Below, piece after piece: positions 27,001-33,000 of a stretch of 64,000 nt of DNA; positions within the stretch are counted from its first letter, which is position 1; every line of letters begins with the position of its first letter. The DNA comes from Escherichia coli (GTDB taxonomy: Bacteria; Pseudomonadota; Gammaproteobacteria; Enterobacterales; Enterobacteriaceae). Position numbers: made by a program. The stretch lies in NCBI RefSeq assembly GCF_001677475.2, contig NZ_CP012498.1; one strand, given 5' to 3'.

Positions 27001-30000
27001 AGCAGCAGGTTGATAATATGGTCACAGAATATCGAGGCAATATCGGAGATACTCAGAACAGCATCCGCGGCGAGGAAAGTATTGTAATAGGACAGTATTC
27101 TGAACTGCAAAATCACCATAAAACAGAGGCATTATCTCAGAATGATAAATATAATGAAGAAAAATCAGCTCAGGAAGGAATACCCGGTGCTGACAGCCCA
27201 CAGGATCTTATGAACAGGGCAAAAGAGTATCAGGATAAGTATAAGCAATAATGCTGGGTTTGGGAGATGATAATGAAAAATTTAGCTCATATTGCTCTGA
27301 TAACTGTGATACAGCTCATTGCCTGTAATCTGGCTGATTGGGGGAGCGCTGAAACAGTTTTTATCCTGTGCTTTATTGTACTATGGCAGGGACTGTTTAT
27401 ATGGTTGTTTTCTCAAATACGAAAAAAACGGCATGTGTCGGATGAGTTTAAATTCAGTAAAGGCGTTTGGTATATACTGATGCCAGTATCTTCCTTATTC
27501 TCTCCGTTATTAAGCCTGATGACTTTTATCATTGGTACACTATACGAATTAAGGCGAGTTTGTGGTTGTGTAAGTGTAAGAGAATGGATGCAATCTCAGG
27601 TAAATGAAAACGCCAATGAAGAATTGCATCTGGATTTTGATGATGTGAGTTTTGATTATGTGGATTTTTATCGTACTAATCCGGCAACAGGATTAGCTAT
27701 GCATGGAGGATTTGATTCAGCAGGAAATACTTTTGGAACTTGTTGGCAGGACTATGATGATAGGCGATAAGAAAACTGTAGCTTGTAATAAAGGTAATTT
27801 GATGAAAACAAAAAAATTGATGATGGTTACCCTGGTCAGTTCCACACTGGTCCTTTCAGGGTGTGGTGCGATGAGCACAGCAATCAAGAAGCGTAATCTT
27901 GAAGTCAAAACTCAGATGAGTGAAACCATCTGGCTTGAACCCGCCAGCGAACGCACGGTATTTCTGCAGATCAAAAACACGTCTGATAAAGATATGAGTG
28001 GGCTGCAGGGCAAAATTGCTGATGCTGTGAAAGAAAAAGGGTATCAGGTGGTGACTTCTCCGGATAAAGCCTACTACTGGATTCAGGCGAATGTGCTGAA
28101 GGCCGATAAGATGGATCTGCGGGAGTCTCAGGGATGGCTGAACCGTGGTTATGAAGGCGCAGCTGTTGGTGCAGCATTAGGTGCCGGTATTACCGGATAT
28201 AACTCCAATTCTGCCGGTGCCACACTCGGTGTAGGCCTTGCTGCTGGTCTGGTGGGTATGGCTGCAGATGCAATGGTGGAAGATGTGAACTATACCATGA
28301 TCACGGATGTGCAGATTGCAGAGCGTACTAAGGCAACGGTGACAACGGATAATATTGCCGCTCTTCGTCAGGGCACATCAGGTGAGAAAATTCAGACCAG
28401 TACTGAAACGGGTAACCAGCATAAATACCAGACCCGGGTGGTCTCAAATGCGAACAAGGTTAACCTGAAATTTGAAGAGGCGAAACCTGTTCTCGAAGAC
28501 CAGTTGGCCAAATCAATTGCTAATATATTGTAATTTAGGATGAGACTGGATAAAGCTGTACCAGTCTCATATAAATTCCCTATTATGGCATTAAGGGGGT
28601 AGTCGTGTTAATCAGAAAATGTATAGTGTTATTAATTTGTTTTCTCATTCAGGGATGCATAAGTACAGAAGTATCTGAAGGAGCTTTATATAAATATAAA
28701 AATAAACATGTAAGAGAATTTTTGTCCGATCAGATAATGTATAATATTCATAATGAGAATTATAATTATATCACCCGCACTGGAGGTTCTGATACTTATT
28801 TTTTATATACTCCAGCTTTGTTTGTTGATAAACAGGTTGCAGCACCATCGGTGAATGTTGAAAACTTATGTATTATAAGCGGAGGGCAAGGTCGAATTAA
28901 GAAATTTACGGCTGATACTTTTATTGAATCAGGCTATAAAGTTGCTAAAGCCTTTCGTGATATGGGATTGTATGCTCATTTCGGAGCATATGAAGCATTC
29001 AGGGATTCTTATCAGAGTTTTGAAGAGCAAAAAGTTGCGTATAGATTTCAAACGAAAAAGCTGGATGAGCATATAAAAAGAGGTTATTTCTTTGATGACT
29101 TTTCCTGTGTTGTTAATGGAAAAACAATATGGTCGCTTTCAATTGAACCAGTCGCTGTTGATAAGGATTCATCAGATGTTGACCAGATATGGATGCTTAT
29201 GACGGTTAATAGCTGATCTTTAGGGATAAAACTAAATAGCGTCAAGAGAATATTATCCGTGGCTGGGATGACTGGCCTCCTGACTGACGCCTCGCGTTGC
29301 TCGTTGTCCAACCCCGGGAAGTAACAAAATAAATTTTGTCGCTTCCCGGCGTTTCCGAAATAAATATGAGAACACTGAACGGTTGTGCAAATTCTTTGTG
29401 CGACCGTGAAGTGTTGCCGGCGAAGCCGGGATCTTCCGGAGAAAGTCATTATGACATCAGACAATATCGCTGAATATGTTGGTGAGAATAATCAATTTAC
29501 TGAGAAGCCTGTAACTGAATCCCCCCCGGGATACAGGATAATACAGCGACCACTAAAGACTATCTGTACAGCAATAATATTGATACTGACCTTTTAGTGG
29601 TTATCGGAGGGCTTATTGTTATATTGTTTCTCATGATGCTTGTCATGTACTTTATTAATTCTCTCAGGTATAAGGAATTAACTGAAATACTGACAAAAAT
29701 ATCTTTTCCTGAGAAATCCGGGAGCAATCCGCTTAAGCCGGAAGAGGGCCGCTGTAATTTGTTGTCCCTGTGTGTGCTGGCCCCGGTATTCTGTACTCCC
29801 AAAAAGCTGGCAGAAGTCTCCAGACAGATCATCGTGACCAGTGCGCAGGAAATTGCCTGGACGCCCGGGAATAGCCGTATTGATGGTGAGCAGGAAGAAA
29901 ATATTACCTGGTCTCTGTCGTCACAGACTCATGCCGATAAATACGAGCTCATCAATAAAACGTCCCGTGTATCTCCTGACAGTGGCCACTTTTATGAACC

Positions 30001-33000
30001 GGGCACGGCTCTGGATTATCGTGAACGGATACGCCTTTTTGTTCAGATCCAGTATTCACACGAGAGTGACTGGTCTGAAATATTGCGCCTGACTGATATC
30101 GTGCTGGAAAAAGTTTCTTCCGGCAGGCCAGCAGGCGGCTATCACCACCGGTATACAGGGTATACATGGTATACATGGTATACATGGTTTGTTCTGTGAA
30201 TGCATTCCACACCGCTCTTTTCTGCTCTGTTCCTGACTTTCCCGGAGTTTCATCATGAGTTTTAACGCAAAGGATATGACCCAGGGCGGTCAGATTGCGT
30301 CCATGCGTATCCGCATGTTCAGCCAGATCGCCAATATCATGCTTTACTGCCTGTTCATTTTTTTCTGGATCCTCGTTGGTCTGGTTTTATGGGTAAAACT
30401 AAGCTGGCAGACGTTTGTGAACGGCTGTATTTACTGGTGGTGCACCACGCTGGAAGGCATGCGGGATTTAATCAGGTCCCAGCCGGTCTATGAGATCCAG
30501 TATTACGGCAAAACCTTCCGGATGAACGCGGCTCAGGTACTGCATGATAAATATATGATCTGGTGCGGTGAGCAGCTATGGTCCGCATTCGTTCTGGCCA
30601 CTATTGTGGCCCTGGTTATCTGCCTGATCACCTTCTTTGTTGTCTCCTGGATTCTGGGGCGTCAGGGTAAACAACAGAGCGAAAATGAAGTCACAGGTGG
30701 TCGTCAGCTGACAGACAACCCGAAGGACGTTGCCCGGATGCTGAAAAAAGACGGCAAGGACTCCGATATCCGGATTGGCGACCTGCCGATTATCCGGGAT
30801 TCCGAAATCCAGAACTTCTGTCTGCACGGCACGGTCGGGGCCGGTAAGTCGGAAGTTATCCGTCGTCTGGCCAACTACGCCCGTCAGCGTGGTGATATGG
30901 TGGTGATTTATGACCGATCAGGGGAATTTGTTAAAAGTTACTATGACCCGTCCATTGATAAGATCCTGAATCCGCTGGATGCCCGCTGTGCCGCCTGGGA
31001 TTTGTGGAAGGAGTGCCTGACACAGCCGGATTTTGATAATACGGCAAATACCCTGATCCCGATGGGTACAAAAGAGGATCCGTTCTGGCAGGGTTCAGGA
31101 CGTACCATTTTTGCGGAAGCGGCGTACCTGATGCGCAATGACCCCAACCGCAGCTACAGCAAACTGGTGGACACACTGCTTTCCATCAAAATTGAAAAAC
31201 TGCGTACCTTCCTGCGTAATTCACCTGCGGCCAACCTGGTGGAAGAGAAAATCGAGAAAACGGCGATTTCCATCCGTGCAGTGCTGACCAACTACGTGAA
31301 AGCCATCCGTTACCTGCAGGGGATTGAGCATAACGGTGAGCCCTTCACCATCCGTGACTGGATGCGTGGTGTCCGGGAAGATCAGAAAAACGGCTGGCTG
31401 TTTATCTCGTCGAACGCCGACACCCATGCTTCCCTGAAACCGGTGATCTCCATGTGGCTGTCCATTGCCATTCGTGGGCTGCTGGCAATGGGAGAAAACC
31501 GTAACCGTCGTGTGTGGTTTTTCTGTGATGAGTTACCCACGTTACACAAATTGCCGGACCTGGTGGAGATCCTGCCGGAAGCCCGTAAGTTCGGTGGCTG
31601 TTATGTGTTTGGTATCCAGTCCTATGCCCAGCTGGAAGATATCTACGGTGAGAAAGCGGCAGCCACGCTGTTTGACGTCATGAACACCCGTGCCTTTTTC
31701 CGTTCTCCCAGCCATAAGATTGCAGAGTTCGCTGCCGGTGAAATTGGTGAGAAAGAGCACCTGAAAGCCAGCGAGCAGTATTCCTACGGTGCTGACCCTG
31801 TACGTGACGGGGTATCGACCGGTAAGGATATGGAGCGCCAGACGCTGGTCAGTTATTCCGACATTCAGTCTCTGCCGGATCTGACCTGCTATGTCACCCT
31901 GCCCGGACCGTATCCGGCAGTAAAACTCTCACTGAAATATCAGGCACGACCGAAGGTTGCTCCGGAGTTTATTCCGCGTGATCTCAATCCGGAAATGGAG
32001 AACCGCCTGAGTGCCGTGCTTGCCGCAAGGGAAGCAGAAGGTCGCCAGATGGCCAGCCTCTTCGAACCGGATGTGCCGGAGGTCGTTTCCGGAGAGAACG
32101 TGACTCAGGGTGAACAGCCACAACAGCCAGTGTCTTCTGTCATCAATGATAAGAAGTCAGATGCAGGTGTGAGTGTTCCGGCAGGGGGGATCGCGCAGGA
32201 GCTGAAAATGAAACCGGAAGAAGAGATGGAACAGCAACTGCCACCCGGGATCAGTGAATCCGGTGAAGTGGTGGATATGGCCGTTTATGAGGCATGGCAA
32301 CGGGAGCAGAATCCGGATATCCAGCAGCAGATGCAGCGCCGTGAAGAGGTAAATATCAACGTGCACCGGGAGCGCGGGGAGGATGTTGAGCCGGGAGATG
32401 ATTTCTGATGAACAGGTCAGCTCCAGTCTTCAATTCGCAGACCGTCCACACGTTCAAATTCCCGGGTGTTATTAGTCACAATAATCAGTCCCCGACTGCG
32501 GGCATGACCTGCGATCATTTGATCAAATGGCCTGACAGGGCGTCCCTGACGGGCAAGTTCTGCTCTTATCTGGCCGGTGTGTGTGGCTGCGGCAGCGTCG
32601 TAATCCAGAACATCAATGCGGGAAACAAATCCCTCGATCACAGCGAGATTGCGTTCAGGCATCTGGCTTTTTTCTGCACCATATATCAGCTCCATCAGGG
32701 TGACAGAGCTGATACACATTCTCCCCTGGTTCAGGTTAAAACGTTCTCTGACACTGGCGGGCTTGTTCTTTATTGTGAAAATGCAGATGTTGGTATCGAG
32801 CATAAACTTCAGCATCAGAATGACTCCCTTTCCTGCATGCCGGGCTGTTCCCTGTTATCCATAAAATCAGCGCTGACGCTGTTTCCGTCGAACCATTCAT
32901 CCCATGACTCTCCGGCTGGCGTAATGATACGGGTTCGTCCGACAGCAATCACTTCAACGCGTTTTACGTTTTCCGGCAATGCAACCGCTTTTGGCAGCCT

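What the first reader, a model, noticed from the sequence alone, without database searches (positions are those of the whole stretch)
29385..30199. Possible frameshifted membrane-protein gene between traT and traD
A small ORF (likely start ATG 29451, ending in a hydrophobic segment ICTAIILILTF) is followed, with a 1-nt overlap and in another frame, by a 200-aa ORF that starts with a hydrophobic segment. The transmembrane helix appears to span the junction, suggesting a single gene split by a frameshift (real, programmed, or a sequencing error).
Basis: inference. Interest (0 to 1): 0.35.

Follow-up and report, generated by a model that had tools for sequence, protein, structure and literature searches.

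The report
Frameshifted yhfA pseudogene upstream of traD
The two overlapping reading frames between traT and traD are one known but uncharacterised F-like plasmid gene (yhfA/orfE of R100), broken by a real, inherited one-base deletion, so this is an ordinary pseudogene and not a new gene arrangement.

Summary
The ORF geometry is as described: ATG 29451 to TAG 29597, then GTG 29597 to TGA 30199, between traT and traD. Together the two ORFs are a disrupted copy of yhfA ("OrfE protein") of plasmid R100. That gene is a single 243-246 aa ORF in at least 1,774 F-like plasmids, is absent from F, and has no known function.

The break is not at the ORF junction. It is a single T deletion between 29529 and 29530, in codon 27 (GTG), just after a C7 run. 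The hydrophobic tail ICTAIILILTF is out-of-frame translation of a polar segment. The real transmembrane helix (29591-29656) lies wholly in the second frame.

The identical allele occurs in at least four independent public assemblies that are 100% identical to the window over about 3.5 kb, apart from one SNP in one of them. It is therefore a real mutation and not a sequencing error. No intact homologue has the two-frame layout, so it is not programmed.

The closest alleles share the markers S24, Y74 and E166. Each carries a different frame-breaking lesion: C7 shortened to C6, or a 14-bp deletion. A fourth relative has a nonsense codon. This indicates recurrent decay of the gene in this lineage.

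YhfA has no detectable family or fold. Interest is low.

The parts
29451..30199 (+). yhfA/orfE pseudogene: the whole gene body from start codon to TGA stop, interrupted by a 1-nt deletion
   Evidence: Aligns over its full length with intact 732-738-nt CDSs: WP_033802128.1, WP_143192297.1, WP_031570496.1 and R100 WP_000199905.1. The names 'OrfE protein' and 'YhfA' come from source databases and from PMC2762410.
29438..29441 (+). Shine-Dalgarno-like GGAG, 9 nt before ATG 29451
   Evidence: Read directly from the sequence. The motif and the start codon are conserved in all aligned homologues.
29261..29432 (+). Conserved leader downstream of traT, shared with F and R100. F diverges from R100 and the window immediately after it.
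   Evidence: blastn of the F traT-traD spacer against R100 and against the window gives 91-92% identity over 172-181 nt and nothing beyond.
29451..29529 (+). N-terminal part still in the original frame (codons 1-26 plus the first base of codon 27)
   Evidence: The translation MTSDNIAEYVGENNQFTEKPVTESPP matches the homologues except for Y24S.
29521..29527 (+). C7 homopolymer, created by the TAC-to-TCC (Y24S) polymorphism. Intact alleles have A followed by C6.
   Evidence: Alignments. The same C7 run is present in L018, L019 and L023. The pCFSAN004180G-type allele has T followed by C6.
29529..30199 (+). Remainder of yhfA from the lesion to the stop. The lesion is a single T missing between 29529 and 29530 (codon 27 GTG reads G-G). 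The original reading frame (window frame 2) resumes at codon 28, ATA, at 29531.
   Evidence: Window GAATCCCCCCCGG-GATAC versus GAATCCCCCCCGGTGATAC in L018, L019 and L023, and GAATACCCCCCGGTGATAC in intact alleles. The frame-2 translation IQDNTATTKDYLYSNNIDTDLLVVIGG... matches the homologues.
29530..29597 (+). Out-of-frame tail of the upstream ORF (GYRIIQRPLKTICTAIILILTF, then the stop codon). This is not a real protein segment of the family.
   Evidence: Comparison of frames 0 and 2 with the intact proteins.
29591..29656 (+). Coding region of the single predicted transmembrane helix (L48-I69, LLVVIGGLIVILFLMMLVMYFI), in the downstream frame
   Evidence: Sequence. It falls within the only confidently modelled part of the AF2 model, a helix spanning residues 36-85 with block pLDDT 75-80 over residues 51-70.
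29597..29599 (+). GTG (codon V50) that overlaps the TAG of the upstream ORF by one base (TAGTG). It is the mechanical start of the 200-aa ORF and a possible but unproven reinitiation point.
   Evidence: The same TTAGTGG sequence is present in all intact homologues, where it is read as L-V.
30150..30188 (+). 9-bp tandem repeat GGTATACAT, 4.3 copies. The window has two more copies (18 bp, in frame, adding YTWYTW) than all aligned relatives.
   Evidence: TRF, alignment and blastn indel list.
27802..28533 (+). traT (flanking gene)
   Evidence: Homologous annotation. The signal sequence [21 protein letters not shown] is visible.
30255..32408 (+). traD (flanking gene, coupling protein)

Best explanation
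Window 29451-30199 is a copy of yhfA (also called orfE), an accessory gene of R100-type F-like transfer regions that always sits between traT and traD.

The intact gene encodes a protein of about 245 aa with three parts:
- an acidic N-terminal tail of 47 residues;
- one transmembrane helix;
- a conserved C-terminal domain of about 175 residues, of unknown fold.

In this plasmid lineage a single T was lost from codon 27 (GTG), between 29529 and 29530, on an allele whose Y24S change had created a C7 run. Ribosomes starting at ATG 29451 therefore leave the frame after residue 26. They read 22 wrong codons and stop at TAG 29595-29597. The rest of the gene survives only as a mechanically open 200-aa ORF.

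The mutation is real and inherited, not an assembly error, and it is not a recoding signal. The gene is most likely a pseudogene in this lineage. Its closest allelic relatives have each been broken independently, in different ways.

What is shown and what is inferred:
- Shown: the identity of the gene, the position and nature of the lesion, its presence in independent assemblies, and purifying selection on intact homologues.
- Inferred: that no functional product is made.
- Inferred: that intact YhfA is an inner-membrane protein expressed with the distal tra operon and dispensable for conjugation. The dispensability rests on F lacking the gene.
For: **One gene**
- Homologues have a single CDS of 732-738 nt, and the five-sequence DNA alignment is collinear across the junction.

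**Position of the lesion**
- window TCCCCCCCGG-GATAC, C7 allele TCCCCCCCGGTGATAC, common allele TACCCCCCGGTGATAC.

**The intact allele is the norm**
- A 41-nt probe spanning the site matches 1,774 PLSDB plasmids, including R100.

**Real coding gene**
- dN/dS is 0.21-0.31 among intact homologues with dS 0.15-0.40.
- Synteny traT-X-traD is kept even by a homologue only 49% identical.

**Real mutation**
- Internal-start gene calls identical to the window's C-terminal ORF are on record: P0183 on 7 contigs and P0184 on 9 contigs read.
- Four of those contigs were read at DNA level: GCA_033729275.1, SRR25942434, SRR30944602 and ERR6099372. All carry exactly TCCCCCCCGGGATAC. Three are identical to the window over 3.3-3.6 kb and one differs by a single SNP.
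- The lost T is not part of a homopolymer.
- The rest of the window is clean: the long tra ORFs are open, and identity to pCFSAN004180G is 98.9% over 22.5 kb with few indels.

**Decay in the lineage**
- The alleles sharing S24, Y74 and E166 are all broken, each differently.
- C7 to C6 occurs in the pCFSAN004180G group: 5 PLSDB records, and the 217-aa gene call is on 228 contigs.
- A 14-bp deletion occurs in pCFSAN004179G, pN96-1, L018 and L019. PGAP labels pCFSAN004179G and pN96-1 'frameshifted'.
- pOkiPb01676_1 has W137stop, labelled 'internal stop' by PGAP.
- None of six reconstructed intact ancestors (five with S24, one with Y24) is in the 15-billion-protein collection.

**Accessory gene**
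- F has only a 252-bp traT-traD spacer and lacks the gene. PMC2762410 says the same.
Against: - No expression data exist. The TAG/GTG overlap (TAGTG) or the internal ATGs at 29633, 29636 and 29645 could allow a truncated protein containing the helix and the C-terminal domain to be made. 'Pseudogene' is therefore an inference.
- pN/pS within this shallow clade is 0.3-1.6 for intact and broken alleles alike. Relaxed constraint specific to the broken copies could not be demonstrated.
- After the frameshift, the downstream 200 codons carry no further stop or frameshift. This is expected if the lesion is recent, but it is equally compatible with continued use.
- The absence of an intact S24 allele rests on exact-match look-ups and on two curated collections, so one could exist unseen.
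Confidence: 0.85

Rival explanations
1. Split but still functional gene. Ribosomes terminating at TAG 29595-29597 reinitiate at the overlapping GTG 29597, or initiate at ATG 29633, 29636 or 29645. The product would be a membrane-anchored C-terminal domain lacking only the acidic N-terminal tail and keeping YhfA activity.
For: - The one-base TAG/GTG overlap (TAGTG) resembles known termination-reinitiation junctions.
- The 200-aa ORF keeps almost all of the helix and all of the conserved domain, with no secondary lesion.
- In the pCFSAN004180G allele the premature TGA likewise overlaps GTG codon 27 (GTGA).
- The N-terminal half of the family is the variable, mosaic part, while the C-terminal domain is conserved.
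Against: - There is no Shine-Dalgarno sequence in front of GTG 29597. The GGAGGG at 29611-29616 lies downstream of that GTG and too far (16 nt or more) upstream of the ATGs.
- The overlap is a by-product: the same TTAGTGG sequence exists in every intact homologue.
- Relatives with W137stop cannot be rescued in this way, which indicates that the gene is dispensable in this lineage.
Confidence: 0.1
2. Programmed -1 ribosomal frameshifting or transcriptional slippage on the C7 run (C CCC CCG, 29522-29528) restores full-length YhfA at some frequency, so the two-ORF layout would be a regulatory device.
For: - A -1 shift within the C run would give ...ESPPGIQDNT..., almost the wild-type sequence (reasoning).
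- The 96 nt spanning the run fold better than shuffles, z = -2.9.
- The neighbouring C6 allele could in principle be rescued by the same kind of shift.
Against: - The arrangement is not conserved. The intact single frame is found in at least 1,774 plasmids.
- The nearest relatives carry a 14-bp deletion or a nonsense codon, which no -1 shift can repair.
- The well-formed hairpin starts about 21 nt after the run, outside the usual 5-9 nt spacing, and the sequence that forms it is ordinary coding sequence in intact homologues.
- C CCC CCG is not, to my knowledge, an efficient slippery heptamer in E. coli, and C7 is short for RNA polymerase slippage.
Confidence: 0.03
3. Sequencing or assembly error in the window. 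The gene would really be intact.
For: - The lesion lies next to a homopolymer.
- No complete plasmid in PLSDB or RefSeq E. coli has the identical 90-mer.
Against: - Four independent assemblies from different accessions have the identical allele, and many more contigs carry the matching truncated gene calls.
- The missing base is a T between Gs, not a change in homopolymer length.
- The other tra ORFs in the window are intact.
Confidence: 0.02

Closest known systems
yhfA / 'OrfE protein' of plasmid R100 (NR1): WP_000199905.1, UniRef Q99389, 245 aa hypothetical protein between traT and traD
   Same: - Same position and orientation.
- Same start context.
- 88% nucleotide identity across the traT-traD interval.
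- After adding back one T, the translation aligns over the full length with the same tail, helix and C-terminal domain layout.
   Different: - The window copy lacks one T in codon 27, so it is split into a 48-aa ORF and a 200-aa ORF.
- It belongs to the '...YTWFVL' C-terminal allele type rather than R100's '...YTWSVSVN' type.
- It carries Y24S and an 18-bp in-frame repeat expansion.
Disrupted yhfA copies in related large IncF plasmids: pCFSAN004180G (NZ_CP012500), pCFSAN004179G (NZ_CP012501), pN96-1 and pOkiPb01676_1
   Same: - All are yhfA alleles of the '...YTWFVL' type. All except pOkiPb01676_1 share S24, Y74 and E166 with the window.
- All are inactivated.
- NCBI's pipeline already labels three of them 'frameshifted' or 'internal stop'.
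   Different: Each has a different lesion: C7 to C6, a 14-bp deletion, or W137stop. The window's single T deletion is a fourth, independent event.
Genes expressed by programmed -1 frameshifting (dnaX, IS3-family orfA-orfB)
   Same: Two consecutive ORFs in the 0 and -1 frames, with a homopolymeric run near the frame change.
   Different: - The layout is not conserved among homologues.
- There is no stimulatory structure at the proper distance.
- Relatives are broken in ways that a frameshift cannot repair.

Membership tests
YhfA/OrfE family of F-like (R100-type) plasmids | Located between traT and traD, co-oriented with the tra operon | tested here: met
   Window layout. The same synteny is seen in R100, E. 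coli, Salmonella and a homologue 49% identical.
YhfA/OrfE family of F-like (R100-type) plasmids | Full-length sequence similarity to family members | tested here: met
   The DNA alignment has 92% mean column identity. The frame-corrected protein aligns end to end. The profile search finds only this family.
YhfA/OrfE family of F-like (R100-type) plasmids | Single uninterrupted ORF of 243-246 codons | tested here: not met
   The one-base deletion at 29529/29530 splits the gene into 48-aa and 200-aa ORFs. The window copy is therefore a member by descent only, as a pseudogene.
YhfA/OrfE family of F-like (R100-type) plasmids | Acidic N-terminal tail, one transmembrane helix and a conserved C-terminal domain | tested here: met
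   Met in the frame-corrected translation. The AF2 helix spans residues 36-85. Membrane topology was not tested.
Programmed -1 ribosomal frameshift site | Two-frame arrangement conserved among homologues | tested here: not met
   At least 1,774 plasmids have the single-frame allele. The window allele is confined to one lineage.
Programmed -1 ribosomal frameshift site | Slippery heptamer X XXY YYZ in the zero frame at the shift point | tested here: inconclusive
   C CCC CCG at 29522-29528 fits the pattern formally. Its efficiency is unknown.
Programmed -1 ribosomal frameshift site | Stimulatory hairpin or pseudoknot 5-9 nt downstream | tested here: not met
   The 9-bp stem starts about 21 nt downstream. 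The nearer small hairpin contains the run itself.
Sequencing or assembly artefact | Allele absent from independently sequenced samples | tested here: not met
   The identical allele is in L031-L034, which come from four different accessions.
Phase-variable contingency locus (homopolymer switch) | Long repeat tract, usually 8 or more units, whose length changes switch the frame within a lineage | tested here: not met
   The tract is only C6 or C7. The window's lesion is a T outside the tract. The four copies of the window allele read all have C7. One relative does differ by C7 to C6.

The most novel reading that the evidence does not exclude
yhfA may be under selection for loss in one lineage of large IncF plasmids, rather than decaying by neutral drift. 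Three different frame-breaking lesions lie in the first 50 codons on the S24/C7 allele, a nonsense codon occurs in a sister allele, and no intact S24 copy has been found. This would mean that intact YhfA is costly in some hosts or plasmid backgrounds, for example by interfering with TraD or with the cell envelope. Alternatively, the C-run region may act as a low-level recoding or switch site that keeps a small amount of full-length protein.
Probability: 0.07. Interest if true: 0.4.

Novelty: already known. Interest (0 to 1): 0.1.

Why it matters
**Annotation**
- 29451-30199 should be annotated as one frameshifted pseudogene of yhfA/orfE, not as two small membrane-protein genes.
- The hydrophobic 'ICTAIILILTF' peptide should not be treated as a real protein segment.

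**Biology**
- yhfA is carried by roughly 1,800 of the sequenced plasmids in PLSDB and is under purifying selection.
- It nevertheless has no recognisable family, fold or known function.
- It is dispensable in F and has been inactivated repeatedly in one lineage.
- This makes it a reasonable, low-priority candidate for a knockout study of accessory tra-region genes.

Tried and rejected
**Short probes failed for a technical reason**
- The 40/41-nt probes for the window allele and for the C7 allele returned 'No match'.
- I reject these as evidence. BLAST's low-complexity filter most probably masks a C7 run, which leaves no 28-mer seed. The C6 probes worked.
- I repeated the test with a 90-nt probe.

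**Function by homology: nothing found**
- Pfam, NCBIfam, PADLOC and PHROGs gave no significant hit.
- PDB sequences gave none.
- A profile HMM against 1.84 billion representatives found only fragments and close relatives, plus one 135-aa partial relative on a 2.5-kb contig with no tra context.

**Structure: uninformative**
- AF2 of the full protein gave pLDDT 41.
- AF2 of the C-terminal domain gave pLDDT 52.
- Foldseek against the PDB gave nothing better than E = 2.2. The afdb50 library was unavailable.

**Are truncated gene calls signs of frequent frameshifts? No**
- The 180-aa and 172-aa clusters are contig-end artefacts.

**Relaxed selection on the broken copies: not demonstrable**
- The first comparison suggested a ratio near 1.
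- Intact alleles of the same shallow clade give 0.3-1.6 as well, so the test has no power.

**Other searches**
- Rfam found nothing above noise.
- The promoter and terminator scan was at the level of shuffled sequence.
- Literature searches for the traT-traD gene found only the pEntH10407 paper that names YhfA. No functional study was found.

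
Full report
**Observation**

- One frame runs from GTG 29385 to TAG 29595-29597. Its likely real start is ATG 29451, with GGAG nine bases upstream.
- A second frame, shifted by -1, runs from GTG 29597 to TGA 30199. The TAG and the GTG share base 29597.
- The flanking genes are traT (27802-28533) and traD (30255-32408), as annotated in plasmids 98.5% identical to this stretch.
- A further 203-aa ORF (28605-29216), with 31-35% G+C, lies between traT and the finding.

**What the gene is**

Related plasmids carry a single CDS of 732-738 nt at this position, all labelled 'hypothetical protein':
- WP_033802128.1 in E. coli p_STEC1585_2;
- WP_143192297.1 in pIncFIB of strain PapRG-04-4;
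- WP_031570496.1 in a Salmonella Give plasmid;
- WP_000199905.1 in R100.

Source databases call the R100 protein 'OrfE protein' (UniRef Q99389) or 'YhfA'. The pEntH10407 paper states that YhfA is found in R100 and not in F (PMC2762410).

I confirmed the absence from F directly. F has a 252-bp traT-traD spacer. It shares only the first 180 bp or so of leader with R100 and the window, and diverges just before the yhfA ribosome-binding site.

**Where the frame breaks**

The five-sequence DNA alignment is collinear across the ORF junction. It shows one length difference in the N-terminal part:
- intact alleles read GAA TAC CCC CCG GTG ATA;
- the window reads GAA TCC CCC CCG G-G ATA.

Two further loci (L018, L019) and pCFSAN004179G carry GAA TCC CCC CCG GTG ATA. 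The A-to-C change (Y24S, creating a C7 run) is therefore a standing polymorphism. The window differs from that allele by the loss of a single T between 29529 and 29530.

After that point the upstream frame reads 22 wrong codons, GYRIIQRPLKTICTAIILILTF, and stops. In intact proteins the same DNA reads IQDNTATTKDYLYSNNIDTD, which is polar. The hydrophobic helix LLVVIGGLIVILFLMMLVMYFI begins two codons before the junction and lies entirely in the downstream frame.

**Is the gene real?**

- Among intact homologues with synonymous divergence of 0.15-0.40, dN/dS is 0.21-0.31. The reading frame is therefore under purifying selection.
- A 41-nt probe across the site finds the intact allele in 1,774 PLSDB plasmids of Escherichia, Klebsiella, Shigella, Salmonella, Citrobacter and Enterobacter.
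- A homologue only 49% identical occupies the same slot in traG-traS-traT-X-traD-traI.

**Error, programme or mutation?**

The window as a whole is a clean sequence. The long tra ORFs (traC, traN, traH, traG, traD, traI) are open, and the window is 98.9% identical to pCFSAN004180G over 22.5 kb with few indels.

My first probes for the window allele returned nothing. I discard those results, because a C7 run is probably masked by BLAST's low-complexity filter. A 90-nt probe shows no identical full-length match in PLSDB or in complete RefSeq E. coli genomes.

The wider protein collection does hold the allele.
- It contains internal-start gene calls identical to the window's C-terminal ORF, including its private V194I change and the repeat expansion. 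These are P0183 on 7 contigs and P0184 on 9 contigs read.
- I read four of the underlying contigs: GCA_033729275.1, SRR25942434, SRR30944602 and ERR6099372.
- All four have exactly TCCCCCCCGGGATAC.
- Three are identical to the window over 3.3-3.6 kb, and one differs by a single SNP at 29027.

The deletion is therefore a real, inherited mutation of a plasmid lineage.

It is not a conserved recoding device. No intact homologue has the two-frame layout. The predicted downstream hairpin is about 21 nt from the C run, and the sequence that forms it is ordinary coding sequence in intact homologues.

**Decay in the lineage**

The window allele shares S24, Y74 and E166 with two other allele types. Both are also broken.
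- The pCFSAN004180G type has C7 shortened to C6, giving ...ESPR followed by a stop codon. It is in 5 PLSDB records, and its 217-aa gene call is on 228 contigs.
- The pCFSAN004179G/pN96-1/L018 type has a 14-bp deletion around codons 44-48. PGAP labels pCFSAN004179G and pN96-1 'frameshifted'.

A sister allele in pOkiPb01676_1 has W137stop. None of six reconstructed intact ancestors (five with S24, one with Y24) is on record.

That makes four independent inactivating events among close relatives, which fits a gene that has become dispensable or costly in these large IncF plasmids.

I could not show relaxed constraint statistically. pN/pS in this shallow clade is 0.3-1.6 for intact and broken alleles alike.

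**What YhfA does**

This remains unknown.
- No Pfam, NCBIfam, PADLOC, PHROG or PDB sequence match was found.
- A profile search of 1.84 billion representatives found nothing outside the family.
- The AF2 models have low confidence, pLDDT 41 and 52.
- Foldseek against the PDB gave nothing better than E = 2.2.

From the sequence alone I infer a bitopic inner-membrane protein. The tail before the helix is strongly acidic, and the residues just after the helix are basic (R, H, K). The positive-inside rule therefore predicts the N-terminus outside and the C-terminus inside. The C-terminal domain has three invariant cysteines (C102, C108, C115) and a His-rich end.

The fixed position just upstream of traD, together with the gene's absence from the fully conjugative F plasmid, points to an accessory, non-essential role in the distal tra operon. 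This is inference, not a result.

**Residual possibilities**

- The TAG/GTG overlap or the internal ATGs could let a truncated protein with the helix and the C-terminal domain be made (about 10%).
- Slippage on the C7 run could restore a little full-length protein (about 3%).

Both need expression experiments to settle.

**Verdict**

This is a frameshifted copy of a known, uncharacterised plasmid gene. The mutation is real and the biology is ordinary.

Noticed in passing
window 30150-30188: The 9-bp tandem repeat GGTATACAT near the 3' end of yhfA has two extra copies (18 bp, in frame, ...YTGYTWYTWYTWFVL) compared with all aligned relatives. Another allele (P0165, 249 aa) has a different expansion, YTGYTGYTGYTW. 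The tract therefore varies in copy number recurrently.
   Followed up: partly
window 28605-29216 (insert spans about 28546-29260): An AT-rich (31-35% G+C) 203-aa ORF with a lipoprotein-like N-terminus (MLIRKCIVLLICFLIQGC) is inserted directly after traT. The full segment is in only 6 PLSDB records. Other plasmids carry an unrelated 86-aa ORF in the same slot (L002, L018, L023), and R100 carries none there. PGAP calls a shorter 159-aa version. No family hits were found.
   Followed up: partly
window 32408-33127: The 239-aa plus-strand ORF between traD and traI is spurious. The real genes are vapC (32417-32815) and vapB (32815-33045) on the minus strand, as in F and pCFSAN004180G. TraI probably starts at ATG 33124.
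   Followed up: yes
L010-L015 (short public contigs): More than 40 short contigs end at the same point, about 516 nt into yhfA, producing a cluster of 172-aa partial proteins (P0021). This suggests a recurrent assembly-graph branch, which could be a mosaic or recombination junction inside the gene.
   Followed up: no
proteins P0030, P0045, P0075 versus R100 YhfA (alignment A2): Some family members combine a nearly identical C-terminal domain (from about residue 102, CNLLSLCVLAP...) with a very different N-terminal tail and helix. This points to recombination within the gene or rapid evolution of the N-terminal half.
   Followed up: no
window 24972-25053 (inside traG) and 16182-17878: Compared with pCFSAN004180G, which is otherwise about 99% identical, a short stretch of traG aligns only with many gaps, and a 1.7-kb block is only 92.8% identical. 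These are local mosaic segments in the transfer region.
   Followed up: no
window 32072: traD carries a 9-bp in-frame insertion (TGTGCCGGA) in its C-terminal part relative to pCFSAN004180G.
   Followed up: no
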